DNA of 53,337 nucleotides, the filler included, from Sluysia triapertura (taxonomy: Eukaryota), in NCBI GenBank assembly GCA_046118255.1. It is 4 parts of 4 records of this genome, joined end to end, with 100 filler letters (N's around TTAATTAATTAA, not from the genome) between each part and the next. Parts side by side here need not be neighbours in the genome. Positions count along the whole stretch, not along the records: positions 14,621 to 29,827 come from JBJNIA010234673.1; 3 more parts are not named here. The stretch is one strand, 5' to 3'. The position numbers and the translations under genes were made by a program. Numbering within the stretch: position 1 is the first letter of the stretch; the number at the start of each line of letters is the position of its first letter. Below, piece by piece: positions 4,111 through 39,737 of the stretch. The notes under the pieces are model-generated. The model saw only the letters and a program-made list of their open reading frames with translations, was not told the origin of the DNA and did not search any database.

Positions 4111-4479
4111 AGACTGTTTATACATTATTATTTATAAACATTATTATTATATAAAGTGTATACAACATAAGACTTATCTTATTATCATTGTGCGTTCAGC
4201 ATAGATTGTTATATCTTGAAGACATTGTTTATTATTTTTTCCCAGAGATATTCAAATTTATATAAGCATTTAAAAATTACTGCCACCATTTCATTGTTAA
4301 CTTACATAATTCTTTAAGATAAGTGTTATATGAGATCTCATTTCAACTTTAAAATTAGTATTGCTGATTGGATCAATAATAATTGCAATTTTCTGTACGA
4401 AATTATTAAAATCTATATTAATATTTTTGTTTCTAATATTTGATATTGTCTTTAATTCGTATTATATTGTTTAACAATG

Positions 4480-5518: not shown

Positions 5519-5643
5519 TTAATATTGGTACAAATGTTCACTCTTATTTATAATTAATGTATGATAATAATAATTTTAATCTCAACTCATACATTAAAGT
5601 ATTCGTTTTTAAAAGTGCATTATTTTATTGTTATATTTTACAG

Positions 5644-5792
5644 AAATTATTGAAACTAAAAAAAGGTATGAATGAAATGTTCTACGTGATAACCGGTAAA
5701 TATCGTGGTACTATTAAAATCGCATGTAAGGTGTACTTTTGGAATTGGAAGGACAAAATTGTGATTTCTGATATTGATGGAACTATTACCAA
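5644..5792 (+). CDS. LPIN: Lipin / phosphatidate phosphatase, C-LIP (LNS2) exon with catalytic DIDGT
   Basis: cag|AAA...ACC AA|gtaata; KLLKLKKGMNEMFYVITGKYRGTIKIACKVYFWNWKDKIVISDIDGTIT; HAD motif I DxDxT. Confidence 0.93.
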
Positions 5793-5843
5793 GTAATAAT
5801 TATTGAAATGTCTGAATTTTATGATAAATGTTTATTAATTTAG

Positions 5844-6083
5844 ATCAGATGTTTGGGGACATATTAGACCTATCATTGGTTTAGATTGGACTCAAGAAGG
5901 TGTTGTAAAATTATATAATGCCATTGATCGTCATGGCTACAAGATTGTGTACTTAACAGCTCGTGCCATTGGTTATGCTGATGGTACACGCAAATATCTA
6001 ACTACGATTTTACAGGACGAAGCCAATTTACCAATTGGTCCAGTTTTGTTGGCTCCTGGTTCATTTTTTGCAGCTTTTAAAAA
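5844..6083 (+). CDS. LPIN: Lipin C-LIP exon
   Basis: Follows a 51-nt GT-AG intron; SDVWGHIRPIIGLDWTQEGVVKLYNAIDRHGYKIVYLTARAIGYADGTRKYL...LPIGPVLLAPGSFFAAFK; phase 2 at both ends. Missed by the ORF track. Confidence 0.93.
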
Positions 6084-6647
6084 GTAGAGTATTTTAGCTG
6101 TTTTTTAAACTTATATTTGATTAAATTTATGAAAATCTTAAATATTTTGTTTGTCATTTTTATATTATTAAGATTTTAGACAATAAATGAGATTATTATT
6201 ATTGTTGGATTAATAAATTCAAGCTTAATAAAATTCAATATGGTTAATTATTATTCTTTACAAAACTTCAAATGTCTCTGGATACTTTTTGTCAATAAAT
6301 TAATATATACTCACGTACTTTATATCTACTTATAATACTTTCAATACAAATTCATCAATATCTTTAAGTCACTTTACAGTAGATTCTCAACTTTAATCAA
6401 TATACACTATAATCTTCAATAGTAGTTTAAATATCCTCATGTATATAAATTATTGTTTGTCAGCAAGTAATCTATCGTTTACTATCTAAGTAATGTCTAC
6501 GCTTTAACTTTATTTAATCTAAAAGTATGAGTTCGGGTACTCGTTCCGCTGACGTGGAATGGAAACGCAATTAAATTCTACCTTAGTATTAAATTTCGTG
6601 TTGTTTAATAAATGGCAAACAAGTTAGTTATACCCAATAACTTTATA

Positions 6648-6650
<3 letters not shown>

Positions 6651-6700
<50 letters not shown>
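6651..6700. repeat. (TTA)n microsatellite
   Basis: Perfect trinucleotide run in a lipin intron; source of the poly-N ORF 6605..6802. Confidence 0.95.
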
Positions 6701-8766
6701 GTTCACTCTAAATAAAATGACTCCTTTTGAGACACTGCTATCGAATTTAATTAAGTGCAAATAAGAAACTAATATTACGAGAAATTTAATATTCAGATAC
6801 AAATAAACATTCTAACAAAATTATCAGCATTTAAATTATACAATAAAAATTATACAAATGCTTAATTATTTCAATGTTAATAAAAATATTAAAATTATCA
6901 ATAACTTTTATGTTTTAGATGGATGAAATAAAATAATAATAATAAAATAATTGTTTCGAATCTATACTGCTTGGTGTGTTTAATTTGATTAACGATAATA
7001 AATTGTTAATAACTGATTCACAATAGCTCCAACTAGCAGAAAATTCAAAAAAATCGATTAATTCTGTAATATTTTCTTGTATGTTTTTTGAATTTTGTTC
7101 TACTACTTATAATATTTTTCTAATGTCACTGATAATAATAGCACTAATAATAATTTCCAAAATAGTATACTTAATTAATAGTTTTCATAACAACGAAATG
7201 ACATTAATAATTTTTATAATAATGATGATAGTATGTTTAATAACACTAATAATTTTCATAATATCAAAAATAGTAGGAAATTAATAATATAACATCAAAT
7301 AAACAGTAATTTTCATAATATCAAAATAATAATAATAATAGAATTTCAATATGTTTTATAATAAATAATGACAATAATAATAATTATGAATAACAAATAT
7401 TATTTTCCATCTAAATAATGTTACTAAATTTTAATTACATATATATTGTATTTATTCTTATTTTAATATGCTTTTTCTTGATTATAATGCTTTTAAATTT
7501 GATATAACATTATTATCTCAATCTTTAATTTGAGTTAATTTTGATCGAGAATAATGTTATTAATTTTTAATTGTATACTAGTTTTAATCTCAATTTAATT
7601 TTAATTCTCGTATTAGAATAATCTTCATGTTCTTAAAATTTGATGTTATATTGTTTTTATAGAGTCTTATTTTAAAGTGATTATTTTAGTCTAAAACTAA
7701 TTGTTATTTGTTATTAAATTTTAAATGTATACTAACTCTATTAAATATCATTTTAAATTGATATAAAGCATTATAATCTTAATGATAATGATTTTAATTT
7801 TACTTTAAAATAATTTTTATTTTAAATAAATTTAAATTAAATCAATTTTAGGTTTTAAAAATTAATGAATATTATGTTACATTATTATTATTTATAAATT
7901 GTAAAAATTAAAATGTATTTTAAAATGAATATAATAAAATGAAAATCTGTTGTTTTTGGTATTTTCTTTTCTGTAATTGTTTTCATCGTATTTGGGTACT
8001 CTGTTGATCTTCTATTTTCATTAAACTGATAATATTTTCAATCGGGTTGAGAAAAGGGTAACAATGTTGAAGTATGTCTAAAATTACCAATTAAAAATGG
8101 TATAATTATTGTATTTGGCTGATACTCAGTCATCAAAATTTTAATAATTTATCGAGAAATATAAAGTAAGTTATTATTAGGTATTAAGTAAAATGAACAA
8201 TAAAGCGACAGTTGAATTTAGGAGCATACTTGTCATTGATTCTTATTATAAATTATAATGTCAAATATAGTATGTCCTGTAAAAAGGTCTGTTTTATTAA
8301 ACATCACAGAATATTTACACAAAGTATAAAGATTATAAAATTAGTCACCTCAACAATATTCTACCAAATCTGTATTCATTTCAGTCAGAGATCGAATTTA
8401 ATTGGTTAGATGATCGCAAATTATGTTCAATTATTTTTCGAGTTATATCCACTCTTTCAGACTACACATAATGGGCATGAATCACTTTTACTAACACTAG
8501 TGATTGTTTTATTGTCGTTACGAATCACTGTTCGAATTAACTCGACAGTTTCTTCACAATGATTAGTTTCCGACAACTTGATTCTTCTTTTCGTATTATT
8601 TTGGTCTTAGTATTTTCATTATTTTTTTTCTTATGGATTTATACAACCGAATCATTGTTTTTTGTCAATAGACGTAAAGTCCTCATTTTGTCGTTTACAT
8701 AAATCAAGTGTATACTAAATTTAAAATTAAACTTTTTATTTCTATCAATATTCTATACATTTTTAG

Positions 8767-9142
8767 AGAAATAATCGAATGTCATCCAGAAGAAATAAAA
8801 ATCAATTGTCTAAATGATCTGCGATCAATATTTCCTGCTGAATCAACAGTAAATGCTTTATATGCCGGTTTCGGAAATCGACCATCAGATGTGACAACTT
8901 ATCGCACTATTGGTATCAATGATGAGCTTATTTTCACAGTCAATAAATACGGTCAAGTTACTTCTTGTGCAAATGAACCTGAATCTCCAACCACCGCTTC
9001 GCCGACAGCCAGTCCATCCAAGATGATTAACACTACTTATTCGAAATTGGCTGACTTAATTGATTCCATATTTCCAAACTTGGGAAACGAAGATGAAAAT
9101 AAAAAGTTGGACTTGTCTGAAGTGCTGCCACTTAATAATTAA
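8767..9142 (+). CDS. LPIN: Lipin terminal exon
   Basis: ttttag|A GAA ATA...; EIIECHPEEIKINCLNDL...LYAGFGNRPSDVTTYRTIGI..IFTVN (HAD motifs III/IV), SKLADLIDSIFP; stop TAA at 9140-9142; follows a 2683-nt intron. Confidence 0.92.
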
Positions 9143-9960: not shown

Positions 9961-12661
9961 AAAAATCGAAATAATTGATAATTCTAAGACTTTTAAACTA
10001 CATTCATTGATCGCATTTAAATGAAGCAATTTCAATGATTACGTTTTTCAAAATAAAACTTACTTCGTAAGAAAGTATCATTTTATGTATTAAGTTAAGA
10101 ATATTAATTTTATCTTTTTTAGTGAATGAAAAAATATATGCAAATTTAATTATTCCTTTTTAGTGAGAGAAATTACAAAAAAAACAAAACCGTGAAATAA
10201 TTGTTTTAGATGCAACAATAAGTAGATATGAGCGCAGTATAAATTAATATATTATTATTATTTATTTATTTTGAAATGTGCAAAAGTGTATAACGACGAT
10301 CATATTTTATTAAATATATATCATATCAGAATGTGTTATTGCAACAGATATGTTTATGGCATAAATTAATAATTTATTTTGACCTTTAATGAAAAATAAT
10401 TAGTATTCGTTTCGTTGTCTAATTCAATTTAAAAATTAAATTAATTGTGTAATAATTAGCACATTTAATAAAATTCCGATCATGTCTAATGATTTATTTT
10501 GTTTTATAAATTTATAATAAATAGATGAGTTTTAATTATTTATTATATAAGTGAAAACAGAGTACATCTGGTAAATTATGTATGGTAAACCAATACAATG
10601 ATATTTCCTAAAAAAATATCTTTTATCTTATAAAACAGTAAAAATTTATCTTTATATTCTTTGTGTTTAGTTTTTTTGCAGAATAAAATATGCGCGCCCA
10701 TATTAGTCATAAGAATCCTTTCGTTTGAATAGTACAAAAACACCTTAATATGTGCGTTATTATTTAAAAGTCCTATTTAATTTGATTCACGTCAGTATAA
10801 ATAAGACGATAAAATCATATTTTTTGTCCTAGTTTAGAAAAGGACTCAAATCTAATATTTAAAATTAAACTAGCTGAAGCTAGAAAATTGTAGGGAATTC
10901 TTCACACAAAAGCACTTCACATATACACAGACTATTAAACAAACTACTAATCTCATTCAAAAACAAACATGACCATCATTATTGTCATAATTATAGTCAT
11001 TATTATATAATATAAATACCAAATAATAACTTTTATAATAAAATTTCATAATAAATTTCAACATAAATATTTCTGCATTAATAAACATAATATCCACATA
11101 ATTGTTATCACTATTATTACTTCCTTATTCCTACTATTTTTTGTTATTTTTACTATCAATCTATCTTTCTATTTTTTGTTTTTCTTCAATGCTCCTTTTA
11201 ATATAATATATCTGATCAGAGCTAAACACCACTCAAGTTCAAATTCTAACAATAAATTCGATGTAATCAATTTCGACGAAAGTTCAGAATTTGCCAAAGA
11301 TTATCACAATTATAAATCGAGAATAATGTGCCTTGTATGAATCAAATACTTCATGCCATTTGGAAATAATCGAAATGATCCAGAGTTTATTTCCTCTCAT
11401 TATTGACATTTACCGCGAAGCTACCAGCATGTCTGTGAAATATATAGAAACTTATTGCTCCACACATGAAATAAATTATTGAAAACGAGACATCTGTAGT
11501 CATAGATCTAAGAGTTTTGTATCCTTGCTACTTGAATGCTTGGTTTACTTAATTTAATAAATTATAGAATAAAACATATTTAAGAAATGAATTTAACAAA
11601 TGTTCAAAATAAAATTTTTAATAAGAAGATTAATGTTTTCGATTTTCTTTTGAAACCAAAAAGTTACTCAGTTCATTATCATCATATAATATGAAACATT
11701 TGATTTACCGCATTTTTTATAGTTTATGTTCTATTATATTGGTAAGTATGATTACAACTAACTGGTTTTTGGCTAAGCACAGCTGATATTTTTTTTATAT
11801 ATCGGCTAGAATTTGCTCATTTATTTTATCAAACAATACAAATTCAACATAGCAATTTTAACTTTCGGTTTTACGTTTTGTCTCCTTTTTAAAACTATTT
11901 CAGTTATATTACATATTTCGTATTTCAGTTATATTTCGTATACCTTAACTATGATTCAAACATTTTTACTATAAAGAAATGATAAGTTTTAGCATTCTAA
12001 TTGTTGTTTTTGTAATAATATCTTCATGTATCATTTTACATATTAGAATTATTATTAAAGATATTAGTCAAAGATAAATAACAGAAATAACGTATGAAAA
12101 ATTTTAAAGTATGTTTAATTTATATTAAATATTTAAGCTATCGATAAGATACTTTTCGTTAAAAAATAATTAAAAAAATACCTAAAAAATAAATAAAAAT
12201 TAAATTAAAAAATTAAACAAAACTATTTCGCCGTTTAAACTAGTTGTCACCATCACCAACGATGACAGCCTATTTACATTCTCATCACGCTGTCACCGTT
12301 GATGATGGTTGTTAACCAGTCATCAACATTTTGTTTGCTATTAATTTTGCCAATACTCCACCCAATCAAAGTCGTCATTAATTTAATTCATTATTTATTA
12401 ATATGATTGGGTGGAGCTAAAAATAGTAACAGAGACAGTACAATCAAAAATTAAAAATTAAAATTTGTGGAAGAAGCATTTTTTTAACAATAATTAGTCG
12501 TAAATCCAAAAACGAGCTGGTAAAAATTTTAAGATTCAATTATAGTATTTTCAATTATTAGTATTTATTCAGACTCAATTTTAGTCACAGTGGCTACTCA
12601 ACAATTATTAGCAATAAATCCAAAAATGATGAAAATTACAAAGTTTAACGATCTCATAATG

Positions 12662-13247
12662 TTATTAGATGTTTATAAAATAATTAAAAACCAATTTCGT
12701 ATACATAAAGATGATGTTTTCAGTATGATATTATTAGATGTTTCTGAAATAATGAAAAGACAGTTTAGTACACGTAGAGATGATACATTTAGCGTAATGT
12801 TATTAAATGTTCACGAAATTATCGAAAGACAATTTTATACATGTAAAGATAATACATTTAGTTTTACGTTATTAGATGTTTCTCAAATAATAAAAAGACA
12901 ACTTTGTACATATAAAAATGATACTTTTAGTGTGATGTCATTAGATGTTTATGAAATAACGAAAAGACAACTTCGTGCACGTAAAGATGATATTAGATGT
13001 TTATGAAATAATTAAAAGACAACTTTCCACCCGTAAAGATGATGCTTTTAGTGTGATGTCATTAGATATTTGTAGAATGATTAAAGGACAACATTGTATA
13101 CATAAAGATGATGCATTTAGTGCGACATTATTGGGCGTTTCTCGAATAATGAAAAGACAACTTTTTACACGTAAAGATGATACATTTAGTATGATATTAT
13201 TGCATAATTACGAAGTAACTACGAGACAACTTGATATACGTAAGGAG
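12662..13247 (+). repeat. Tandem array of nine diverged 69-bp units (23-aa repeat, one frameshifting deletion)
   Basis: Unit approx TTATTAGATGTTTATGAAATAATTAAAAGACAACTTCGTACACGTAAAGATGATACATTTAGTGTGATG; reads LLDVYEIIKRQLxTRKDDxFSVM in ORFs 12590..13006 and 12975..13814. Confidence 0.92.
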
Positions 13248-17124: not shown

Positions 17125-17221
17125 CGGGAAGATCCATTACCAGGACATGTACAAACTTGTTAGAAGATTAGATCCTCCGTTAGGTTTAGGAATGAATTGC
17201 CCATACCGAGCTGCTTATATG
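17125..17221 (+). CDS. Cav2: Voltage-gated calcium channel alpha-1 (Cav2 type), EF-hand exon
   Basis: ttcag|C GGG AAG...TAT ATG|gttgga; 97 nt; [32 protein letters not shown] matches the Cav EF-hand/PPLG-CP-R-AY segment. Upstream exons not seen on this piece. Confidence 0.9.
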
Positions 17222-19039
17222 GTTGGATAATTAATATTATTAAATAAAATTAAATGAGCATGAAAATTATGTGGAATATAACACAATATAACCACACAAA
17301 TATAAGCATAACCATACCCTACATACTAGCTTTAAATTTTTTACTTTATCATAATTTAAGATGATTTTATTCGATTATAATGTTTTTAAATTTAATTGAA
17401 TATAAATTTGTAATATTCTTTGTAATGTTTTTAATTTTTTTGACTTCTAACCTGGGAAAATCAATTTCAATACAAAAATTCAGAATCGGAATCATACCTC
17501 AATAAAGATTCTTTTTTATATGTGTTGATAGTTCATCTGATTAATCCATTATACATGATTCTTTTAGAATAATAATAATTTCTTGAGTTATCTTTGTTAA
17601 AATCATAAGACTCTAATTTTTCTACGAATATTGCAGAAACATTTTTCATTCAAAAATATCACTTTAATCCAACGTTATTTTACAAAATATTATAATGGAC
17701 CCAATTAATTTTATACTTTAAACTTATTGAAGGTTTTCACAAGCTTTTTAATATATTACATAAAAATATCTAAAAAACGACAATGTCTCATTACAAACTT
17801 TCTTGCCGGTAAACATCTATATTACCATTATTGTTATTATTAATATTTAATTTTCAATTATTAATTCTATTAATAATTTTTATTAATTTAATTTTTAGAT
17901 CCAGTCCTCACAAATGATTTCAACTATAAGTTATTTAATTTAACATCATAACCTGGATAAGTTTTTAAAAATATTTTATATAACCGAACTCTCAAGTACA
18001 CCCTAGAATAATGAATATTTAAATAATATTTCTGAAACTTGTTATTTTAAATATGAAGAAGAAATTTATGAAACGTCTTTCTAAAGGAAACCAAGAAAAT
18101 CTAAGCTTTTAAGAATGAATGCAAACAAAAGATGGTTGATTCGATAAAATTTTGGCAAAATAATAATAAAATACCAAACTAAAAATTGAGCTTAGACTTA
18201 CTTAGATAAAAAAATAAAAATTAGCTATAAAAAAACAAATAGTATAAAATGTCTACTATAAAGTTGAGTAAATTTTATTAAATTATCTAAGATGGAAGGA
18301 ACTGAATGATTATAGTAAACGGACTGTGATAAAATTGCTGAACCAGAAAAGATAAATGCATGAATGAGCTGTCTAATGTAAAGCTAAATGAGATAAAAGA
18401 TCAAGAATCAAAGCAGATAAATAACATGGACGAACCATATTACCCGCGCTAAATCACTACACACCTTCCCTAGGGACTGGGTAGGGACTACCTGATCTAA
18501 TTTTAAAATTCGTTCTAATTGGTTGAATGCTTTATTTGCGATTATATCATATTATTCGATCGTTCTGATTGGTTAAGTGTTTTATACTGACTAAAGTTAG
18601 TATTATTTATTGGATATAGATTTTAAGAGGGACGATGTATATTTGTAGATCTAGAACCCTAAATAAATAAAATAATTTGGAGTAGCACAAAATACCACCT
18701 AATATGCACCAAATCATTTAAATATGAACACAATCCATAAGATTCGTTATGGACTTTATTTGATGTTTACCTTCGATGTCGGATGGGTTTTCAACATTTT
18801 TATCACTTTCGAGTGTTAGTTTAATAATGCTATAAGATATGAGCAGATATTTGGAAAAAGAATTGAAGTCGGAATTCGTTATCATATTAATTTTGTATTG
18901 TATAATGTTACTTTAATGTATTGAACTGTTTAAATGCTTGTGATTAATGTTTAAAGTTTAATTTGTTCTAATAATTTTGTATAAATAGTTGAGCCACCAC
19001 ACAAAAATATATGTAAGATGAGTTTAAGTTGAGCCATCA

Positions 19040-19557
19040 GTTAGGTATACAAAGATCAAATGCAATTTATCTAATGTATCCAATGACAACTTAGATTTTA
19101 TAATGATCAAATTTTTGTTAAACAACGATTACCGAAATTTGTTTTGTAACATTTCAAACTACAGTTCGAATTAATGGAACTACTAAAAAGAATGCATTAA
19201 GTTTTGCACATAGTAATGTCGAATTAATTAGTCTTAGTCGAAATACAGACTTACGAGAAACTTATACACTGCATTTTGACATTATGCACACAGTGGTGAA
19301 ATCTTATGTAAAATCAATCATTAGAAACTTAGCATATCTTAATAAAAATATAAACGATCGAATAAGAATGGCTGATTTCAAATATATTATTATTTCTTTG
19401 CATTTGTACTTGAACGTGATGATGACAGCGATCAAAAAACATTTGCCACAACAAGGAATTTGAGATTGACTTTAAATTTGTTAAAGGATTAGATTTGATT
19501 CATGGTGTATACAGTACTGAAATACAAATAAATAATAACCATCTAATTATATTGTAA
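19040..19557 (+). pseudogene. Polinton/Maverick-like major capsid protein, C-terminal half (fossil)
   Basis: With frameshifts: NDQIFVKQRLPKFVL/VTFQTTVRINGTTKKNALSFAHSNVELISL (cf. DNLFxGQLPKRxxIxFVxxxAFNGxxxKNPFNFQHxN) and YFFAFVLERDDD..TTRNLRLTLNL / LIHGVYSTEIQINNNH* (cf. FAFDLTPD..GNLRLELxF..VYAEFxxxIEID). Confidence 0.65.
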
Positions 19558-19830
19558 ATGAAATAAGTTTTTTTTATTATAATTAATTTTTTTGGAAATT
19601 AACCAAATTAATCGAGTGAGTTTAAAAATACATACTGGATAAAGTCCCATCATATGTCGATGAAGATGGTTACATTGTAAATATAGATTTAAGTAATTTA
19701 GATGGTGAGCATTGACTTACAATTTATGTGAAACCTGAATGTGTTGACGTATTTGATCCCTTTGGTTTTTATTATCCAAATTTATTTGTTGATCGTCTTT
19801 TTATTGTATAAACAAAAACCTTGTCGGTGA
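19558..19830 (+). pseudogene. Polinton/adenain-like cysteine protease (fossil)
   Basis: 19638-19811 reads DKVPSYVDEDGYIVNIDLSNLDGEH*LTIYVKPECVDVFDPFGFYYP, i.e. the IVNxDxSxxxGxHW...FDSFG motif with catalytic His and Asp; the Trp is mutated to TGA. Confidence 0.8.
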
Positions 19831-19842
19831 AAAAAATTAATT

Positions 19843-20150
19843 ATGAATTTCGCCTTCATTGATATAGAAAGTTTTGTTAATAATGAAAACAAATTATTAA
19901 TTAAAGAATTATGCATTATGCATGATATACATACTTACAATATTTTAAATGAAATGAATTGAACGAAAAGCTAAAGCAGCAAACAAGTATTTAATGAAAT
20001 ATATACATCATTTAGTATAGCATGAATAAAAAAACATCTTACAGAGAGTGCGTACTATAAGAAATCAAATTCAAATTTGATATTTTGTGTAGAAAAGTAT
20101 GCATATATGAAAAGTTATTTCCAGAGTTGAAAATAGTTTTGTACAATAAT
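19843..20150 (+). pseudogene. DEDD-exonuclease-like ORF of Polinton-like viruses (fossil)
   Basis: MNFAFIDIESFVNNENKLLIKELCI, then after a frameshift KAANKYLMKYIHHLV*; matches the DxxxF..IKELxI..NxWLxxxxHGLxW pattern. Confidence 0.5.
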
Positions 20151-20486
20151 ATAATTTATCACAAATAGTTAGTTATTCTTAAAAATATTCAAAACTTAGT
20201 ATAGTAAATAAATGAAACATTCTCATAATTGAAAACAAAGAATCGAAAAGATGACAAGACTGCTCAAAAGCTTCAGAAATATACAATTATTCTGTAAGAC
20301 TAGATGGTCGATCTACTATGATGAGCGTTGGCTGAAATGCCCGTTTTGAGGAATGCTCTTGAGGATGATTTCAGAAAATATTTCATAGACATAATTCAAG
20401 AATACTGAAATAAATATTTAAGTGTTAAAAAATTTGTACAAGATTTACATAAAAATTGAATTTCATTATTATCATAAATATAATCT

Positions 20487-20650
20487 GTAGTGGACTTTAA
20501 ATTAACTAATCACAATCACAAACAATCACCTATACAAATCGACTCATCTTACAGAAACAAATTACTCAATTCATACAAACATAAATGCAGTCGTAATAAT
20601 TTATAATTACTAAAATTTTGCAATTATTATCACCATAATAATAACTATTG
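20487..20650 (+). repeat. Dispersed A/C-rich repeat beginning TGTAGTGGACT
   Basis: Aligns by eye with 47151-47305 and, inverted, with 47590-47735; weaker relative at about 10889-11010. Confidence 0.7.
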
Positions 20651-21499
20651 TCATAATAATGCTAAATTGTTATGATTTTGTGATTGCTGTTCTTCTGGTT
20701 ACTATTGTTGTTTTTACTCTGTTTCCTTTTTATATGTATGCATGTTTATTATTTACTATTATTATTTATTATTTTTATGTTTTTAATTTTTTTAAAACAA
20801 TTACCTACTTACAAATGAAAGTAGGATATTATTGTGATTATTATTTTATTTATATTATTGTTATTCTTATATCTATTGTTGTTTTAATCATTGTTATTAC
20901 TTATTATTACTATTACTGTTTATATTTATTATTATTATCATAGATATTTATAATTATTGCAAATATTATAATAAAAATAATTAATTAAAAAATCAATTGA
21001 AGAACTTTTATTTTGACTTATATGGAAAACACTAACAATGAAACTTTATTTCTTAGACACTCAATTTACTTGAGAAAAATGATGTGAGCAGTTATCAAAA
21101 ATATGAAGTTATTCATGAATTAATAGATAATCTAAAGAACTTTACAGACGATTTTTGTTTAATGTGCAAAATCTGATTGTTCACCAAAAACAACATTACC
21201 TATAAATGATTTAACACCAGTAGGTGTAAATATAACAGTAATCTTCGTAAAAATGATATAATTTTTGTTAAATGTCAAATATTGTTATTAATGCTTCAAC
21301 CTAATATAAAGTCCCTAAGTTTTGTTAAAGACCTTAAGCCTATTATAAAATGAGTAAATAAAAATTATCTTCATTTTAATCTTTTCTGTGTTCAAAAAAT
21401 ATAAAATTTAACTATGTAGATAAAATCTTTAAAAGCATTAAACCCACCCTTCACATCATCAATAAGCAAAATTATTTCCAAGTTATATTCGATGTTTAG

Positions 21500-24960: not shown

Positions 24961-25620
24961 TCTTCTTCGGAATTACCGTTGGATTACAAAGTCTTGAATG
25001 ACGTTAACAATTTTTCAAGATTGGTTAAAAGATATGAACAGTATAATTAAAGCAGTGAGGTGGAAAATTTTATTACTGTTAGACAACGCACCCATTCACT
25101 TAAAAGACTTCGAATTGAGCAACATCGAATTATTCTTTTTCCCACCTAATACGTCATCTGTCATTCAACATCTTGACCAAGGTATTATAAGAAGCTTTTG
25201 AGTATGTCAATGAATTTTAATTTAGATAATAATGTTACACGAGAGATGGTATAAAAAGGTTTATTTGTATCAAGCAGTGGTTTGGATTTCGAAAGCATGG
25301 AATAGTGTAAAACCAACGACTATCTCTAATTGTTTTACCAAGTCTTCCGAAAATACGTGTTTTGAGATTAATCCAAAATTTGATGAGCATTTCTTATTTG
25401 ATCTATTAGATAAGTATGAAAAAGAAAGTTCTGAAAAAGAGGAAACAAATGATAATTTTGTTGAAGCAGTAGAAGGTGCAATAATGACAGAATACGAAGT
25501 CTATGAGTATGCAGAAAAACTTGAAAAATATTTTCAAGCTAATATTCCAGATAAGATGAACAAAATGTGAGATCTGATTGATGAAATTCAAGGAGAAAAT
25601 GTATCTAGGCAATTAAAAAT
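24961..25620 (+). mobile_element. pogo/Tigger DDE_1 transposase remnant
   Basis: LPLDYK..*MTLTIFQDWL...KILLLLDNAPIH...LSNIELFFFPPNTSSVIQHLDQGIIRSF, then AVVWISKAWNSVKPTTISNCF; frameshifted and 5'-truncated. Confidence 0.92.
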
Positions 25621-29927: not shown

Positions 29928-29998
29928 TATCCTGGTATTGTTTGTAAATACACGGGCCGCATGATTTGCCTCCGCGGGCCGCCACTTTGACACCACTG
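29928..29998. mobile_element. Terminus of a Charlie/Buster/SPIN-type hAT element
   Basis: Reverse complement reads CAGTGGTGTCAAAGTGGCGGCCCGCGG...GCGGCCCGTG, the CAG-start TIR with GGCCCGCG subterminal motifs. Confidence 0.75.
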
Positions 29999-31410
29999 AT
30001 TTAGGGGTTCCTTTTGGTGAAATAAAAAAGCGCAACCTAACTGATCTCCTTCAGGAAAACTTAGCACTGGTCGAGAAAGTGAAAGATTTCACCCGAAGTT
30101 GTCGAAACAAATTCCTCATGTTTCTCAACTTTATCCATTCGCGCTTACCATCTCATGTGCGTAATCTTAATATAAACACCAAAACCCTTTTCAGTCCTCA
30201 TACCTGGAACCAGTACTCAAATCATGGAACCTTCCCCAATCTGTCGGGTATGATGAAAAGGTCAACCGTCTCTTCAAGGGCTTCTTAGGTTTAAAGAATT
30301 TCTCTCTTAACAATGCCTTCTTCTTTGCGCACAAAAATCGCGGAGATTTAGGCTTGACTTTATGTGTCAATAGTCAAGTTTTCAATAGTCTTACCGACCT
30401 TATTTGTAACCTTTCCTTTCATGAAATTGTCCGAGTTGCTACTAATAGACTGAGTAAAGTCGAAAATCTATCTGACGCTTTATCATGGTTGAATAAGGGT
30501 AAATTTGATAGGCACGCACGACTCCTAACTTGGTGGGTCAAAATTCGGCGGTGTATCTTCAATCTGCGATGTAAATATAGAATTTCTGTGTCCTTCCTTA
30601 ATTCTGAGGACCAAATTAAACTCTGTATTAAGTGCGTCATCCTTGGTGATAGTGAGATTATATTAAATCGGTTTCATGAAGAGAAAGTGGGGAAATTAAT
30701 TAATTAATTGAAATTTCCAATAGCAACACTTGGCAATTCCACAAAATCCAGGGTCGTTTTCTGGACCTCTTTATGAAAGTTCCTTATCTAGTCGTCCATT
30801 TTTCCTACAACTAAACAATCAGACTTGGATCTTTTCTATTAAAGCCAGAAACAATACCTAGAAACTCAATTTCTGCCCACAAAATATTAGGCTATATCTT
30901 CCTGTCAGTTATAGCTAGTGCGGGTTTGAACGTGAAACAATTGCTCATGTCTTATGTATGTGCTCTTACGCTGTCACTGGTCGTACAGTGTGACATAATA
31001 AGATACTAGAATGCCTTTCTATTAAACTTATATAAAGGGCTTTTCAGTTAAAAAAAGACGCACAAACCTCTCTTATTGATGAATACCGAGGTACCGACAT
31101 TCAGGCGCAGGGTACGAAGTCGACTCAACTCTTTCTGATTGATGTCAAGTCACCTATCGATAAATTTATGGCAGCCTGGTCTCTTAATATTACTATGTAA
31201 TCTGATCTTATGGAGAAACTCCAATCGGAACTTAAATGTCAGGTTTCCTCTGATACCTTTCTATTTATTGGATTCCGAAAATGACGTTCTCTTAAAAAAG
31301 TTAAGTTTCCGCAAAGCTGATATCACTGAGTTAGCGCGCCAGTGTTTCAAGCTGTCATTGAAGTCGTCCTTTAACATTTATAAGGACCATTCTCTCCAGA
31401 GTTCCACTTG
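29999..31410 (+). mobile_element. R2/R4/NeSL-like non-LTR retrotransposon, 3' part (RT thumb, CCHC knuckle, restriction-like endonuclease), inactivated
   Basis: LGVPFG (RT YLG), FFAHKNRGDLGL (GGLG motif), ETIAHVLCMC...*HNKILE (CCHC plus RHN), TDIQ...LFLIDVKSP (PD-D/ExK); several frameshifts. Confidence 0.85.
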
Positions 31411-31419
31411 AATATTTAT

Positions 31420-32340
31420 ATCTTAGTTCTATCAGAATTTCATTTAGGAGCGTGGTACTGTACACATTTTACTTTTTTCCATGTATGTACTTCTTGTAGT
31501 ATATATTGTCTTGAGTCTATCCTTTCATCATTTGGTATCTCCAATACCTTATTTTACTATACACATACCTGGGAGGTTTCATTTCCTTTTCCTTTAATTT
31601 ATTATCTTTCTTGGGCAATACTAACTCTTTCTTTGTTAATCCTATATTTTATGTAAATTCTTTTATCATTTGTGTTACGGGGAACTTCTGGTAAAGTTTT
31701 TTACCTTTCATTTTTGCATTCTAGTTTGACCTTTATTCTTCCCTATCTGTAAACATTGTGTCAATGTGTATAATAAATATGTGTAAAAATTGTTCCAAAA
31801 ATAAAATTGTTAAATAAGTATACATACGTAAAAATTGTTAAATATTAATTAATATATTCTAAAAATAGAAATAAAATTTTTTATTATAGTTTGATGGTAT
31901 TATTATTACTTATTTCCTTATAGGTCTGGATCGCCACTGCAGTTAAATAATTTTGAATTCGTTTTATTTTTTCGACTTCATTCCAGCCGTTTGCTTCTTC
32001 AATGCTTTCATGCTCAAATAAGAAATCACAGAGATCCTCCTCTGCTCCGTCAAATTTTTTCATTTCTGGTAATGCCATTATGGACGCATTTCTTTGGCTA
32101 GTTGAGCCATATATTCCTTAAAATCGTTAGGTAATGTCATATCGTTTGTTAATTTTGATCTATAGCCTTTTGCTGGTACTAATTGCTTATCTATTTTTTA
32201 TTTAAATCTTACTTAAAGTCTTAATAATTTAGGTAATATCAATAAATTTAGAATTTATACTTATACTTATAAAAGTTGTCTTATTTTCTTCTTAATACTG
32301 GTTGCTCCTCACTCTGGACACCAGTTTTTTAAATATGTAA
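31420..32340 (-). mobile_element. Ty3/gypsy LTR retrotransposon 5' remnant (PBS plus gag)
   Basis: ORF 31884..32078 KFDGAEEDLCDFL..ANGWNEVEK..YLTAVAIQTY is a retrotransposon gag signature; decayed knuckle near 31720-31760; PBS-like TGGTGTCCAGAGTGAGG at 32323-32307, shortly after a TTACA LTR-like end. Confidence 0.7.
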
Positions 32341-34902
32341 GAAAGTAGTAGTGAAAAAAGGCTTTTTAATTTATACTTATTCTTTACTGTGAGTTCCTTA
32401 AAATCTTAGACTTAAGGGCTAAGTTGTAAGCAGTATTTTAAAATAACTTATATGGAGGTATAGTAAGCTGAGATTAAGTCAATTATACTTTCCTAGGTAA
32501 TTATTAATTAATAAATTAACACAAAATCAATAATTAATAGAGTTAAATAATAAAATCAATAATCAATAACAAAAGTTAAATTTTCACAATAAAGTTATGA
32601 TTATTGTGTTTGTTGATGTGTGTCTGTTTCTACAGTGCATCTAACTTTGGTTATTTGTAAAAACTTTAATTTTTGGTATTTCGTTTTATTGTTTTGTCAT
32701 AAACTTTATAAATTTGTTTTATTGTGCAAATTATTGTATTGTTATTTTAAATATTTATATTAATTACTATAATAAACTTTTCATATGTAAATTAAATAAT
32801 TAATAAAATAAATTAATTTAAAAAACTAAAAATATAACATTTAAAAAACAAATAAAATTTTAACTAAATGAAATAGAATACAAATGAATATTTTGTTTTT
32901 GTAAATGAATTAAAAGAAAATTATAAAAACCAAAAATTTCAATATATAAATACTGAATTTTTGTAGCCATATTTGAACAAAAATATAAAGTTAATCATCA
33001 AAGGAAATTTAAAGTCAATTCCGTGAAAGTAAGGTTGTTTTTATTAAGTTTTCTGTTCTCATGTTAATTCAGAGAACGTAATATCCTATTTAAATTAATA
33101 ATAATAATCATTCTAGACCTTAACAGCTAGATTAATCTAAAGCTTTAGTACTAAAGAAATTAAGTACGATCAATTCATTATCATTATTATAATTTTTCCT
33201 CTTAATTGCTTGTATATAATCTTTTAAGTATATCATTTTGATTACAATATAATATAAGAATTTTAGTTCATTTTGTATTGTTATTTGAAGAATTTCCCAT
33301 ATAATTTTAAAAATATTTACCATTTGTAAAGATTGTGATTGTAATTGTTAAATCACACTAAAGATTCAAGTATAAGTGTTTTTAATTGGATTAAGTGAAT
33401 ATTGCAAAATATTACTGAATAAATAACTATGTGATTAATTTCAAAATCCTAATAGGACACCATCTTCATAAGACGTGCTTATTAGGTGAACTGACCTATA
33501 GATATTTTGCTAAGTTAGCTTATTTTCATAATAAAATACTCAGCAGAACCAATAAATGTTTGGGATTCAAAAAGTACCATTAATGAGATCAATTTGGTTA
33601 GAAAATACTAAATAGCATGAAACTCGCGATACAGTTACTGTAAATATAGAAAATCTAATTTACAGAGCCATCAACTATAAACAATATATAAATTAATATT
33701 CGTGATAACTTTGACCATTTATTTTTCATGTGGAAGTCAAACAAATTTACCGATTCCTATAAATATTGAAGCTTGCAATCATGCACAAGTGGATCGTGAG
33801 CTACCATTCTGTGGTGAGCCAAAATTACACTTCATCTCTTCAGAATCAAATAATGACGTACTAAAAGTTGCAGTTGACTCATATCAGAATACCTTCGAAT
33901 TATCAAAGGAACATACTTATTTTGGCATCAATATAAAACTTTGAAAAGATAACGACTCTGATTTATATAGTTATACGATAGAGTGACATTCTGCCTTTAA
34001 CGTTTTGAAGATTTTATGACGATACGAAAACAGATGTTTCGGTAATTTAAATCATTAAATATCCTGTCATGAATGCAAAATTGTGCAATAAAATCAGATT
34101 TTTCCCATTGTCCAATGAGGTAGTAAGATGTGATGTTTTTCATGCTTAACGTTTAATAGAACTAAATAATTACTAGAATGCATTTATATACATTTTCTCG
34201 ATAATTCATAATGTCCACCAGATAGATAAAATTATATGAATATTTAGCTTATCAACTCTGGCTAAATATTCATTAACTAAAAACAGATGAGACATTAGGA
34301 AATTTTAACGACTTTTACCACAAATTATGTGACCTGAAAAATATTCATTTTCATGTTTTTACAAATGAATATTAGAAGCTTCAAATCGTTTCAAGTTTTT
34401 AAACAATATCAATATTTGTTACTATTAAACAAAAGCAAAATTTATAAAAATGGATTCTATCAAAATGAAGCCTTGGTCTCAGTAAATGGAAGATGGAATT
34501 GATCGATGAACTTATATAATATGTAAAACCAATTTAAACGATTTTTCATAAATAGTTTAATTGCAATAAAATAATTTATATTGCGTTAACATCTACTATA
34601 AATACTCAACACGTTTAAAATAAATCATTCATTATAATATTTTTTGCCTTTTCTTAAATATATAATATTTAAGTAATTTAGTATTTACTGATAGCAGGTA
34701 GTGCAACTTTTTAATACATATTTCGTAATATTTACAAATTTCGTAATATTTACATAATAACATGATTAATACGATAAAAAATGCTATAAAATAATTTATT
34801 ATTATGAAACTATAAAATCATAAAAATTATTTTTAGTACAAAAGTACAAAATATAATTGCTTAAGTTAATTAGAAATGTTAATATATATAAAAATTTTGA
34901 GC

Positions 34903-35229: not shown

Positions 35230-35325
35230 GGGCTGATAGCTTAGTGGTCAGAACATTGCTGTAAAGCGAGAAGGTCATGGTTCGATTCCCGGCCAATCCA
35301 TTTTATGAAGTCTAACAATTATATT
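35230..35325 (+). mobile_element. tRNA-derived SINE head / tRNA pseudogene
   Basis: A box TAGCTTAGTGG, B box GGTTCGATTCC, CTGTAAA anticodon-like loop, but acceptor and anticodon stems are mismatched; second copy sharing the non-tRNA tail at 46757-46820. Confidence 0.75.
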
Positions 35326-35499: not shown

Positions 35500-36750
35500 T
35501 GGATAATAGTATTATATAATATATTCAATATTATCATTTTGAACTATAAACGCCATAGATTTCGTGTCTGCAATTGCACAAAATATTTGAATGAATTCAA
35601 TTATAAAGATTTTGAATTACACATGACTATATTTAATATATCTAAATTTGAACGATTAAATAACTTATAGATAAATTTTTTTTAAATATGATACTCATGA
35701 TAGGACATTATTTTTATAACTCCATCTATTGATATATTGTATAAAAATAAATAAATTAATGAATCAATTATTAATTTATTATTAGTGGAAGAAAATACTT
35801 CCCATTCGCAGCAAACAAAGACTTAAATGAATTTATTAATACAGACATGAAGAACTTTTAGGAATAAGGTGTCAGTGTTTAAGAGGTTTTAGGACAGATA
35901 TCATATTTAATTATGCAGTAAAAATCTTGAAGGAGATATTTTGTATGCAATTCCAATTGATAATAAATCTGAATTTACTGATCACAGTAAACCACCATCA
36001 TTTGTTAGGCGCAAATTTCGAATCTGTACTACTACCAGCCGAGCAATATCAGCTAAGACATGAACCATTAGCTGCAGGTTTATTATTAGTAGGCTCAATA
36101 CGGCGTACTACAGTTTTGCTGATAATCAATGTCCAGTATGTTTTTTAAATATGATTTAAGAACTTTTCCAAAATATAGTTGTCTTATTACCAAGATCAAA
36201 GAAATGAATTTAACTACTTACGAACACACAAAATCATGTTGTGTGTAAATGAAGAAACTAAACTAGTTAAAGATCATGACCATTTTAGTGGTAAGTATTT
36301 AAGTGCATGATGTTGTAATAAATGCAATTTAAAGTAGAAAAATTTGTCCGACTTTACGCGCAATTTACGTTATTTACATGAATTTATGACATTCGTCATA
36401 TGTTAATATATGCGTTAGGTGAATTATTAAATTGGGAAATAACGCGTATAACACAAAGATAAAAAAGTTTCAAACCTTATTTGCTTATACTAAATCATTA
36501 AAAAAATTTCAATTGAATTACCAAGTTGTTTAAATAGTAAAGTATTTTCAAATAGCGCAACAAAATCAAAAGGGTTTTTCAGTATCATATGCAACTTCAC
36601 TCTGTATATTACAAAATATTAAATCATTATCACCAAAGTTGTATAATGAATCAAGTGATCACGATATAATAAGGCATTAAAATGGGGCAAAAATTAAATG
36701 TACTAATGTAAGATTTTAACGTACTATTAAAAACGTAATTATGTACACAA
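35500..36750 (+). pseudogene. Polinton/Maverick-like protein-primed DNA polymerase B, N-terminal/exonuclease region (fossil)
   Basis: In order: HRFRV..KYLNEFNYKDFELHMTIFNISKFERLNNL*IN; INLLLVEENTSH; CQCLRGF; GANFESVLLP..YQLRHEP (cf. YADFESIL, Exo I); VKDHDHFSGKYLSA*CCNKCNLK (cf. VRDHCHxTGKYRGAAHxxCNL, EndoVII-like insert, 36266-36335); KGFF. Confidence 0.8.
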
Positions 36751-39147
36751 ATAAAGACAACTTTAAAAATTCAATTAAATTTACTGACGAATTGATTGCG
36801 CTTTTACTAAGAAAAGTGTGCTTACACCTGATTTAATCTTAGAAAACGGTTATAAATAATGATATCCGTTGTACGCAGTTTAGGATTAATTTTAGTCAGT
36901 TATTTCCTATTTTAAGTTGTAGTCGATTGTATAATACGTGCAAGTATAGTATAAAAGCGGTTAAATTCGTTAAAATTGTCGTCGGGAAGCAGGGATAAAA
37001 TACCCCAAATGAAGTAAAAGTGAAATTTTTGGGTCAATGACAAAATTACTAAAATCGTATTGGGATAGTGGAGGTAAATGTATCCCGATCATGGGCAAAT
37101 TGATTTTGATTTAAGTAAATTAAGAATGCATCACTTACAATATGAAGAATTAAAAAAATATCGTCAGCAATTTAATCGTAAGATGAAAAATGCATTAATG
37201 TTAATGATTCTTTCTTAAATGAAATGATCAAAGGTGAATTATTGGAAACGTCAAATCATGATACAAATTGTCCAATGTATATTTAATTTTAATGTAAGAT
37301 AATTAAGTTTAGAATTACTAAAATTGTACTTAATGATTAAAGAAACAGGGTTAACCATACTTCATAATTTTAATTAGAAAACTTAATTCTTATTCTTAAG
37401 ATTTAAATTGAAATTATGATAGCATTCAGTTTCAGAAACTACAAAATTTTATATCGCTTACAAGAAATGGATACAATATATTTTCCGAAAGATTTGATTC
37501 AATTAATTAATCACAATATAATTTTTTAAATCCTTTAGAAGTTTCTCCTTTAAATTTATCATTTTAGCATTTGTATAGTAGTTCTGCTCATTGAAGTTAT
37601 TTGTTTCTAAATAATAAGCACTTAGTTTAAACATTATCTTTTGAATTTGATAGTTTATCTAGACCAATTGAGTAGCATCATTTAAATATTTTTGAGACTA
37701 AATTCATATCATCCACAATTAGTAACCAAGACAAACCGATAAATCTTTTCGCTAAATACTTTATTAAATTATTAATTATTAAAAAATAATTAAAAATATA
37801 AATTTCTTTTAAATCTAATTTAAAAAGCTTGCTTTTATTAATACTATAAATATAAACATTTGATAAACAAACAATAAATAAACCTAACGTGAATGAAAAG
37901 AAATTAATGTAATATAAGAAATTAATAAATTAAATGAAAAAAAATTAATACACTAATATACTATATTAATATAGTTTAAATTTCAAAAGTTTTTGCATAA
38001 CGGAAATTTATTTTTGAAAATATTTATAATTTATTTTAAATATAATCATTTAAATCTATTATAAACACAAAACGGAAAACTGAAATTTATTTGAATTTTA
38101 AATAAATAATAATTCAAGGAAATCATTTAGTATATAAGTAAGTTATTTAGTAAAAAATTAACATACAAGTTGTTTTTGACATTATGTGATGCATCCCTAA
38201 GAGGAGTTACCTGTACGCCATTTATATTTCACATATATACATAGTTACATTATTTTACAAATCAAAATTTTTTACATTAAAGTTAAAAAACTGCTCAAAA
38301 AATTTTCTTGTCTTAAAACAGCATTACAATCTTTAGGACAAGCAGTTTTAATTTTCAGAAATAACTTGGCGATGTTTGCATTTTTTTACTCACGCGAGTG
38401 AAACGATTGATTAATACGAATATTTATACATGCATTTAACAGTTTAATACTCCACCAAATGAATCTAGTGACAGGGTAACAAACTAAGGATTGAAATAAA
38501 TTTAAAATAACACGTATTTAGAAAATAATTTGTTAAAACAAAAATACATAATCAACAGGTTAATTTTGAAATTTCAGGATTTATTTTTTTCCATAAAATA
38601 ATGTAAATTCAATATATTATTATATTCAATATTTATTTATTCTAATACATAAATAAATAAATGCTTAATACAAGTGAAAGCATTACGAAATTAAATTGAA
38701 TTAGAACAGTAAACACAAAATTTATACAGAATATTATGTACATTTTAATTTTTACTCTGCCCTTAAAGTTAATACCAATTTTTAGCTCAAAGCCCAAAAC
38801 GTTTCTCAGTAAAAAATTAATTTCATTTTGAGTAGCATAAAGTAAAAGCCTATTTAGTGTACGTAACTTCACATCTAAAACATTTTAAATTTGATTCATA
38901 CTTTTAATTTTACTAAATCAAAAGTAGTCAATTAGAAGTCCATGAGCCATTCAATAAGCTGTAACTTATCAGAAATTTAACTATTTTGTGATTCCGGAGT
39001 CATTGAATGTCAAGAGTTGAAAAAATTACTTTAATTGAAAAGTTTATCTAATATAGACAGTGTCAAGAAAATTTAAATTTTACATTTTTTACAGAAAAGA
39101 TTATCCATTTGGTAGTATACTTTCGCTTTAAACAAATTAAATCAAAC

Positions 39148-39737
39148 CTTTGTTGGTGGTGTATTAGGCCCGTCAACAAATACCTTGTCCAAAATTCTAG
39201 CACTCATTTCTTGACGCAATTGCTGAAAATACGATCGTAATTTTTCCACTTCGGCATTAGATTTCGGTTTAGAATAAATACTTGAGAGTTCATTAGGAAA
39301 ATTTGGTTCACCAGGTAAATCAAATTTAGCTAAACCAAGTGCAGTTAATTCTTTTTCACCTTGAATACTATTACTAGCTTTCTGAAGTACTTTAAGGCAT
39401 TCAATAATATAAAGCATCAAATACACTAAAACTCTATCTGCTTCAGACTAAATAGGAATTAATAAAAATGATTTTAAGATAAATACTTCTATTTGGAAAT
39501 TTTTAAAAAATACCAATGATTTAAAATAATATAATGCTTCATCAATTATATCTTCTTGATTGTTATCCACTAAAAATAATAAAAAATAATAACATCTCTC
39601 TACTCATTGTTGGAGCTGGTCCTTTAAATTTTGTTTTCAATGGAAGCAATGCAACATTGCCTATTTTTTGAGGAGCATCAGCAAACTTCGAATTATATGA
39701 CTAAAGAAAGTTAAACACAAAATTATAATCATACCAT
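39148..39737 (-). CDS. ARPC3: ARP2/3 complex subunit 3 (p21-Arc), exons 1-4
   Basis: Exons 39737-39735 (ATG), 39700-39604, 39569-39487, 39447-39148; introns 34, 34 and 39 nt, all GT-AG; MSYNSKF..IGNVALLPLKTKFKGPAP..DIIDEALYYFK..VFFKNFQIESEADRVLVYL..FDLPGEPNFP..YFQQLRQE; 180 aa with the last exon. Confidence 0.96.

What the first reader, a model, noticed from the sequence alone, without database searches (positions are those of the whole stretch)
17900..20200. Fossil Polinton/Maverick-like virus gene block inside a calcium-channel intron
Seen: three co-oriented, abutting decayed ORFs invisible to the ORF track: capsid-like (stop 19555-19557), protease (ATG 19558; IVNID...GEH*...FDPFG) and DEDD-like (ATG 19843), within the 4.3-kb Cav2 intron 17222-21499. 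A weaker integrase-like trace (IFYITELSSTP...FKYEEEI) lies near 17970-18070. Established: a double jelly-roll capsid next to an adenain-like maturation protease is the morphogenetic module of Polintons/adintoviruses. Inference: an old endogenous virus integration, possibly an undescribed lineage in this host group.
Basis: partly seen in the sequence, partly recalled or inferred. Interest (0 to 1): 0.7.

Follow-up and report, generated by a model that had tools for sequence, protein, structure and literature searches.

The report
Decayed Maverick virus fragment in intron
A broken 1.2-kb piece of a Maverick (Polinton) virus-like element, with half a capsid gene, part of a maturation-protease gene and a third small gene, lies in a calcium-channel intron, likely as an inert leftover of an old insertion; this is ordinary, except that intact relatives likely splice a tiny intron out of their protease gene.

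Summary
The core observation holds. At 19001-20145 (+) lie three decayed, co-oriented genes: the C-terminal half of a Maverick-type major capsid protein (an intact relative folds as a double jelly-roll), the His-containing part of an adenain-like protease, and a homologue of the small ORF that follows the protease in intact relatives. All three beat shuffled controls. A near-complete 14.2-kb relative from a metagenome (integrase, ATPase, two penton-like genes, capsid, protease, the same third ORF, Beta-type PolB) has the same gene order. Many 80-95% similar contigs pile up over 18861-20173 only, so the family is multi-copy in this genome. The 'integrase trace' at 17970-18070 fails against a 71-sequence profile. 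The 'DEDD' label rests on a motif only. No terminal repeats, target-site duplication or other Maverick genes lie nearby. A separate PolB fossil lies at 35.5-37.2 kb. Polintons are already published for flatworms, the likely host group (untested lead), and most Maverick loci are fossils. One unexpected point: 6 of 8 related loci (3 element types) start the protease gene with a GT-donor 39-47-nt intron candidate, and the window keeps a trace of that junction. Verdict: real, ordinary fossil of a new family member.

The parts
17126..17221 (+). Host Cav2-type calcium channel exon (GPHH domain), upstream of the intron
   Evidence: Pfam PF16905 E 5.5e-12
17222..21499 (+). Host intron that holds the fossil (GT...AG)
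   Evidence: sequence; flanking exons
17970..18070 (+).
   Evidence: 10.5 bits vs shuffle mean 11.0, 36 of 60 as high; contig depth 28-79 here, against 161-2857 over the block
18861..20173 (+). Extent of the multi-copy Maverick-derived stretch as seen from contig pile-up; 18861-19000 has no detectable protein homology
   Evidence: summed contig depth 161-2857 in these 13 bins, 15-121 in the 9 bins before and 3 bins after; no MCP homology at 18760-19000
19001..19557 (+). Pseudogene: C-terminal half of a Maverick-type double jelly-roll major capsid protein; about 7 frameshifts, an in-frame stop and short deletions; stop codon 19555-19557
   Evidence: phmmer E 1.9e-12; tblastn; 161 bits; relative P0010 folds like iridovirus/PBCV-1 capsid, E 3e-13
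19558..19625 (+). Protease start codon and T-rich stretch; probable remnant of the short intron that relatives carry right after the start codon, with splice signals no longer intact and part of the next exon missing
   Evidence: 10 of 11 letters match the relatives' junction directly after the capsid stop, chance about 6e-4; ATG-to-core distance 65 nt vs 96-104 nt (intron) or 63 nt (L007, intronless)
19626..19800 (+). Pseudogene: adenain-like (clan CE) maturation protease core; catalytic His region present, in-frame stop at 19713, Gln/Cys part absent
   Evidence: 19 protease hits of 25; 16 of 19 hit Peptidase_C5 at E up to 0.1, 7 above the curated cut-off; profile hits adenain structure 1avp E 9e-7; 80.7 bits
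19843..20145 (+). Pseudogene: homologue of the 154-aa ORF that follows the protease in relatives; N-terminal acidic motif resembles DEDD exonuclease motif I (label recalled, unproven); 2 frameshifts, 3 stops
   Evidence: 32.6 bits, 0 of 60 shuffles; hhalign 91.8%; same neighbour in L002, L003 and fused call P0022
21500..21715 (+). Host Cav2-type calcium channel exon (pre-IQ/IQ), downstream of the intron
   Evidence: Pfam PF08763 E 1.2e-13; PDB Cav2.2 E 1.3e-8
35509..37188 (+). Separate fossil: fragments of a Beta-type Maverick PolB with an endonuclease-VII-like motif; not contiguous with the block
   Evidence: tblastn of L003 PolB E 6e-12, 1e-8, 7e-7; best reversed-window decoy 2.8 bits vs 43.6

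Best explanation
This is a decayed 1.2-1.3-kb fragment of a Maverick/Polinton (adintovirus-type) element, with half a capsid gene, a truncated protease gene and a third small gene, and it is likely an inert remnant of an old germline insertion. Shown: homology, gene order, decay, location in a Cav2 intron, many diverged copies in the same sequencing run. Inferred from relatives and established knowledge: the parent element was a 14-20-kb self-synthesising element that copied itself with a protein-primed PolB and integrated with an rve integrase, and could package DNA into double jelly-roll capsids matured by the adenain protease. After insertion (or later rearrangement) both ends and most genes were deleted and the rest drifted neutrally; being inside an intron it is spliced out of the host transcript and likely does nothing.
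For: Three genes beat shuffles: 161, 80.7 and 32.6 bits, maxima 19.6, 15.7, 15.8. One frame with X at stops found 25 relatives among 1.84 billion proteins, 6 capsid-type and 19 protease-type. P0010 folds like NCLDV/virophage capsids. L003 holds ATPase, rve+chromo integrase, two penton-like ORFs, capsid, protease, ORF3 and PolB; L002 repeats capsid-protease-ORF3. The int-minor capsid-PW-major capsid-protease order is the published one (PMC8097293, section read). Contigs identical to the window bridge low-copy DNA into the block (18141-19208, 3 differences; 20114-20606, none), so it is integrated and not a joined contaminant. 96% of vertebrate Maverick loci are eroded (PMC8097293, passage). A PolB fossil in the same window shows the superfamily is resident.
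Against: No terminal inverted repeat or target-site duplication was found in the intron; no integrase, penton, PW, PZ, ATPase or PolB homology flanks the block, so an insertion at this very site is not shown. The single run may be the source of the assembly and is not independent; summed contig depth is not a copy number. No intact copy in this host was seen. The host genome was not available.
Confidence: 0.8

Rival explanations
1. The fragment is Maverick-derived but reached this intron second-hand, as cargo of another mobile element (for example the gene-capturing, CCAAT/hairpin-headed cassette or Helitron-like element that earlier notes describe in this genome) or by a small segmental copy.
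For: Only 1.3 kb of a 14-kb-plus element is present, with no end features. A doubled 15-nt CCAAT-containing word lies 50 nt apart at 18510 and 18560, about 300-450 nt upstream; earlier notes describe paired CCAAT modules ahead of cargo (unchecked).
Against: No look-alike of 17900-19000 or 18440-18620 among earlier windows; 18440-18600 folds no better than shuffles (z +0.99); its best match in the window is a host tandem repeat near 7.5 kb (77 vs shuffled maximum 63 in 5 trials); the upstream stretch is low-copy while the block is high-copy, so the two do not travel together often.
Confidence: 0.15
2. The block has been domesticated or acts as a regulatory or piRNA source for the host.
For: It lies on the sense strand of a transcribed intron; planarian Polintons are piRNA targets (PMC8532177, passages).
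Against: All three genes carry several frameshifts or stops and the protease lacks its catalytic Cys region; no Rfam match in the intron.
Confidence: 0.03
3. The similarities are chance matches in AT-rich DNA, or an assembly artefact.
For: The window's own frames hit no Pfam family in 21 of 21 frame pieces; the integrase trace did prove to be chance.
Against: E-values to 1.9e-12 in a 1.84-billion-protein search; collinear three-gene order as in L002/L003; reversed-window decoys score at most 3.4 bits for the capsid profile against 64.7; bridging contigs.
Confidence: 0.01

Closest known systems
Mavericks/Polintons of animals (adintoviruses, Beta PolB class; now Eupolintoviridae) (PMC8502044, parts 1-2 of 6 read; PMC8097293, one section and passages)
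   Same: Double jelly-roll capsid gene followed directly by an adenain protease gene; relative L003 has ATPase, rve integrase, penton-like genes and a long PolB that misses Pfam PF03175, as described for the Beta class; degraded endogenous copies are the common state.
   Different: Only a fragment here, no ends. Relatives add a third ORF after the protease, a TBP-like gene (Pfam E 5e-18), a ubiquitin-conjugating gene and two penton-like paralogues. Core genes of vertebrate and nematode Mavericks are described as intronless (PMC8097293; bioRxiv 10.1101/2022.07.12.499685), whereas 6 of 8 related loci here show a GT donor right after the protease start codon.
Polintons of planarians and other flatworms (PMC8532177 passages; PMC10748475 section 8 and supplementary rows)
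   Same: Same superfamily, probably the same host phylum (lead from earlier notes, not tested here); multi-copy.
   Different: The published flatworm set (748 copies in 8 of 73 genomes) was found with the pPolB1 class; whether this family equals any named flatworm Polinton was not testable, as no such sequences were available to the tools.
Unnamed metagenomic elements L001-L006, L009 and proteins P0001, P0010
   Same: Closest relatives found: capsid stretch up to 44% identical, grouped with the window at 93/95 support (not starred); protease core up to 58% identical; same gene order in L002/L003.
   Different: They are intact or nearly so; hosts unknown; L005/L009 lack a detectable ORF3 homologue after the protease.

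Membership tests
Maverick/Polinton (adintovirus, Eupolintoviridae) | Double jelly-roll major capsid protein gene | tested here: met
   C-terminal half present, 161 bits; relative P0010 matches iridovirus and PBCV-1 capsids, Foldseek E 3e-13, model pLDDT 63.5. The fold was predicted for the relative, not for the window's broken copy.
Maverick/Polinton (adintovirus, Eupolintoviridae) | Adenain-like cysteine protease gene next to the capsid gene | tested here: met
   80.7 bits directly after the capsid stop; family profile hits adenain 1avp E 9e-7; Cys part missing in this copy.
Maverick/Polinton (adintovirus, Eupolintoviridae) | Protein-primed PolB in the same element | tested here: inconclusive
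   Not next to the block; present in relative L003 and as a separate fossil at 35.5-37.2 kb.
Maverick/Polinton (adintovirus, Eupolintoviridae) | rve integrase in the same element | tested here: inconclusive
   Absent from this fragment; present in relatives L001, L003, L005, L006. A truncated fossil cannot settle it.
Maverick/Polinton (adintovirus, Eupolintoviridae) | Packaging ATPase and minor capsid genes | tested here: inconclusive
   Not detectable at 17900-19000; present in relatives (penton label from position and motif, recalled).
Maverick/Polinton (adintovirus, Eupolintoviridae) | Terminal inverted repeats and 5-8-bp target-site duplication | tested here: inconclusive
   None in the intron, but the ends of the element are not preserved; L003 also shows no paired ends within its contig.
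Beta-class adintovirus (divergent PolB) | PolB not of the PF03175 type | tested here: inconclusive
   L003 PolB (1298 aa) has no PF03175 hit at E 0.05 and carries an endonuclease VII motif; the window's PolB fossil matches it, but its link to the capsid block is not shown and no named reference was compared.
DEDD/DnaQ exonuclease (third ORF) | RNase H-like fold with four acidic catalytic residues | tested here: inconclusive
   Only the first motif-like stretch (hydrophobic-D-x-E/Q) is visible; no Pfam, PHROG or PDB sequence hit; model of relative pLDDT 34, best Z 2.8.
Intronless core genes (described trait of vertebrate and nematode Mavericks) | No spliceosomal introns in core genes | tested here: inconclusive
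   Relatives show a conserved GT-AG intron candidate in the protease gene; no RNA evidence was available.

The most novel reading that the evidence does not exclude
The fossil belongs to an undescribed invertebrate Maverick lineage whose maturation-protease gene is split by a 39-47-nt spliceosomal intron two codons in; unspliced RNA reads Met-Lys-stop, so capsid maturation is gated by the host spliceosome, a possible switch between transposon-like and virion-forming life styles.
Probability: 0.25. Interest if true: 0.55.

Novelty: new member of a known kind. Interest (0 to 1): 0.27.

Why it matters
As a fossil it matters little: decayed Mavericks are common in animal genomes and known in flatworms. 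It records that a multi-copy, probably Beta-type Maverick family with capsid genes once spread in this host. The one feature worth a second look is in the relatives: a conserved tiny intron candidate at the start of the protease gene. If spliced, it contradicts the description of animal Maverick core genes as intronless, explains why ORF callers give these proteases false hydrophobic leaders or late starts, and offers a testable point of host control over virion maturation, in elements whose particles have not been seen.

Tried and rejected
Pfam scan of 21 single-frame pieces of the block, X at stops: no family. Word-based homologue search with the protease frame: nothing. Viral-contig scans with P0010, A1 and the L003 integrase: nothing; with A2: one tailed-phage-like contig at E 6e-5, L010, discarded as unrelated. 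Integrase trace rejected. N-terminal capsid half, penton, PW, PZ, ATPase and PolB C-terminus next to the block: none above shuffles. DEDD identity: Pfam, PHROGs, PDB sequences, phage tblastn, low-confidence fold and wide structure search all uninformative; the Atlas gave no answer. Terminal repeats: none. Rfam: none in the intron. No RNA holder listed. Protease tree (22 rows, 65 columns) does not place the window: 1 of 19 inner branches starred. Promoter-cassette idea: no look-alike, no stable hairpin; the doubled word is absent from 10 of 10 loci. The weak penton-profile hit at 33253-33678 (11.5 bits, best decoy 6.4) was not followed. Literature: 9 searches gave no paper describing a protease-gene intron in animal Mavericks in the passages seen; introner insertions in dinoflagellate polinton-like viruses are published (PMC12166617, passages). 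The original 2006-2007 Polinton papers, Repbase and bioRxiv supplements were not seen, and the one supplementary file of PMC8502044 held as text had no flatworm names.

Full report
1. Setting. The window is AT-rich eukaryotic DNA (GC 16-38% per kb). The stretch lies in a 4278-nt intron, GT at 17222 and AG at 21498-21499, between exons that hit Pfam GPHH and Ca_chan_IQ. The downstream exon is closest to human Cav2.2, 2.1 and 2.3 among solved structures (E about 1e-8, against 8e-4 for Cav1), so 'Cav2 intron' is fair. No whole genome was held. Earlier notes on this genome call the host a flatworm; I did not test this.

2. Are the genes there? The window's own frames hit no Pfam family (0 of 21 pieces) and a word-based search failed. 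A full HMMER search with one frame (18999-20219, X at stops) returned 25 proteins at E up to 0.001: 6 capsid-type and 19 protease-type. Sixteen of the 19 hit Peptidase_C5 at E up to 0.1 and 7 pass its cut-off; their profile hits adenovirus adenain (E 9e-7) and aligns its His and Cys regions. The full-length capsid-type relative P0010 gave a model of pLDDT 63.5 whose best matches are iridovirus, PBCV-1, virophage and other double jelly-roll capsids (E 3e-13), and in the viral library an uncharacterised Cotesia bracovirus protein (E 5e-21). Frameshift-aware scoring against dinucleotide-block shuffles gave: capsid profile 204-408 of 409 at 19001-19551, 161 bits, 0 of 25 shuffles above 19.6; protease 22-79 of 115 at 19629-19799, 80.7 bits, 0 of 60 above 15.7; third ORF 1-115 of 155 at 19843-20144, 32.6 bits, 0 of 60 above 15.8. 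The capsid part carries about seven frameshifts and a stop, the protease a stop right after the His motif, the third ORF two frameshifts and three stops. The N-terminal capsid half and the protease's Gln/Cys part are absent.

3. What failed. The integrase-like trace scores 10.5 bits against the C-terminal part of a profile of 71 Maverick integrases, with 36 of 60 shuffles as high; the whole profile finds nothing on either strand of 17500-18860. The third ORF is a real Maverick accessory gene (hhalign 91.8%; neighbour of the protease in L002 and L003; fused call P0022), but 'DEDD' rests on a motif resemblance recalled from memory: no Pfam, PHROG or PDB hit, and the model of a relative was too poor to use (pLDDT 34, best Z 2.8).

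4. Relatives. A capsid-profile scan of metagenome contigs gave 9 loci from 403 candidate stretches. L003 (14.2 kb) has, in order, a ubiquitin-conjugating gene, a TBP-like gene, an A32-type ATPase, an rve plus chromodomain integrase, two penton-like ORFs and a small PW-like ORF (these three labels from position and recalled motifs), capsid, protease, the third ORF, and a convergent 1298-aa PolB with an endonuclease VII motif and no PF03175 hit. The run integrase, minor capsid, PW, major capsid, protease is the published Maverick module (PMC8097293, section 7 read); a PolB outside PF03175 is the Beta class of PMC8502044 (parts 1-2 of 6 read). In a 10-row tree of an unbroken 85-residue capsid stretch the window groups with P0001, P0010, L001, L003 and L005 at 93/95, short of the starred threshold; the protease tree is unresolved.

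5. Copies and integration. One run holds the stretch (93% of words); it may be the source of the assembly. Laid at 80% likeness, 1998 contigs cover 17750-20750, most of them under 95% alike; summed depth is 161-2857 in the 13 bins from 18861 to 20173 and 15-121 in the 9 bins before and 3 after; up to 65 contigs differ from the window at one site. The tool warns that this is no copy number, but it shows a multi-copy family with ends near 18860 and 20175 in this copy. Contigs of depth 14-17 that match the window almost exactly run from low-copy DNA into the block (18141-19208; 20114-20606), so the fragment is integrated. No terminal repeats and no other Maverick gene flank it. L003's PolB also finds a separate fossil at 35.5-37.2 kb, 15 kb away beyond host exons.

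6. An intron in the protease gene. Of 8 related loci with DNA after the capsid stop (L004 ends earlier), 6 start the protease gene with ATG, two letters, then a GT donor. In 5 a T-rich stretch of 39-47 nt ends in AG and its removal opens the frame to the catalytic core; L001 is cut by the contig end. These 6 are 3 element types (L001; L002/L003; L005/L006/L009), not 6 independent cases. The start and donor are conserved while the interior differs; splicing puts the conserved G-V-x-P-L motif 19 codons from the start, as in intronless proteins such as P0019, P0023 and P0024; unspliced, the frame stops after two codons. L007 and L008 are intronless. Several called proteins (P0002, P0004, P0005, P0008, P0037, P0039) have hydrophobic leaders as expected from reading through such an intron. 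The window's ATG at 19558 follows the capsid stop and matches the 11-letter junction at 10 positions; such matches occur 5 times on both strands of the window, about 6e-4 for a 12-position target. Against this: the window's distance from ATG to the core (65 nt) is near that of intronless L007 (63) and far below the intron-bearing loci (96-104), so a deletion must be assumed; the protease tree does not place the window among intron carriers, although its five best pairwise scores are to L005, P0003, P0005, P0004 and P0002, none of which has an intronless start; and no RNA was available. I put the intron in relatives at about 0.85, in the window's ancestor at about 0.7, and a regulatory role at about 0.25. 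Vertebrate Mavericks are reported to have no introns in intact elements (PMC8097293, passage) and nematode core genes are called intronless (bioRxiv 10.1101/2022.07.12.499685, passage); introner insertions in dinoflagellate polinton-like viruses are published (PMC12166617, passages), and unchecked notes of this scan report intron-bearing Polintons in other animal genomes, so the trait is not unique.

7. Mechanism. Shown: a truncated, decayed, multi-copy Maverick morphogenesis module inside a host intron. Inferred: an autonomous element replicated by protein-primed PolB and inserted by its rve integrase entered the germline, multiplied, and this copy lost both ends and most genes; it is removed with the intron and is likely inert (0.8). 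Rival: second-hand transport by another element (0.15); a doubled CCAAT word lies upstream and earlier notes describe such cassettes, but no look-alike, no stable hairpin and different copy levels argue against it. Domestication (0.03) and chance (0.01) are unlikely.

8. Novelty. Polintons are reported in the planarian Schmidtea (PMC8532177, passages) and in 8 of 73 flatworm genomes, 748 copies (PMC10748475, supplementary table row; section 8 read); 96% of vertebrate Maverick loci are eroded. No named relative could be compared, so the family may be undescribed, but the kind is well known. Interest 0.27; new member of a known kind. The boldest reading, splicing-gated protease expression in this lineage, has probability about 0.25 and would deserve about 0.55.

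Noticed in passing
window 35509-37188 (+): Second Maverick fossil: fragments of a PolB like that of L003 (residues 373-703, 745-779, 1073-1099, 1111-1142), with an endonuclease-VII-like motif near 36270.
   Followed up: partly
L001 7173, L002 3340-3385, L003 9194-9237, L005 5262-5313, L006 5232-5283, L009 105-156: Protease gene starts with ATG, two more letters, then a GT donor and a T-rich 39-47-nt stretch ending in AG (L001: donor only, contig ends); removal restores the N-terminal length seen in intronless relatives. L007 and L008 have no such intron.
   Followed up: partly
L005 5651, L009 494, L001 1303 and 3389: Further strong donor-like sites followed by T-rich DNA, two of them at the 3' end of the protease gene: possible additional introns.
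   Followed up: no
L003 1-14198: Near-complete Maverick-like contig with a TBP-like gene (Pfam E 5e-18), a ubiquitin-conjugating gene (E 1.7e-12) and two penton-like paralogues; L001 also has a TBP-like and a RING-finger ORF.
   Followed up: partly
window 18510-18574: Two copies of a 15-nt CCAAT-containing word 50 nt apart; weakly like a host tandem repeat near 7.5 kb.
   Followed up: partly
window 20504-20660 and 47171-47726: High-copy non-coding repeat right after the block, similar in both orientations to an element with 71-nt inverted arms at 47171-47724 (MITE-like).
   Followed up: no
window 5554-9142 (+) and 39142-39447 (-): Host lipin (LNS2) and ARPC3 exons.
   Followed up: no
window 3112-4124 (-), 25226-25570 (+), 29965-30707 (+), 31884-32117 (-): Other decayed transposon-like frames: hAT-like and retroelement-like by eye (recalled, no clear Pfam hit) and a DDE_1 piece (E 8e-4).
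   Followed up: no
window 12589-13244: Tandem array with a 69-nt unit that keeps open frames of 157 and 284 codons; no Pfam hit.
   Followed up: no
window 33253-33678 (+): Weak hit to the penton-like profile (11.5 bits; best decoy 6.4), about 2 kb upstream of the PolB fossil.
   Followed up: no
window 35230-35295: GC-rich stretch that looks tRNA-derived by eye, just upstream of the PolB fossil; ARAGORN finds no tRNA gene in the window.
   Followed up: partly
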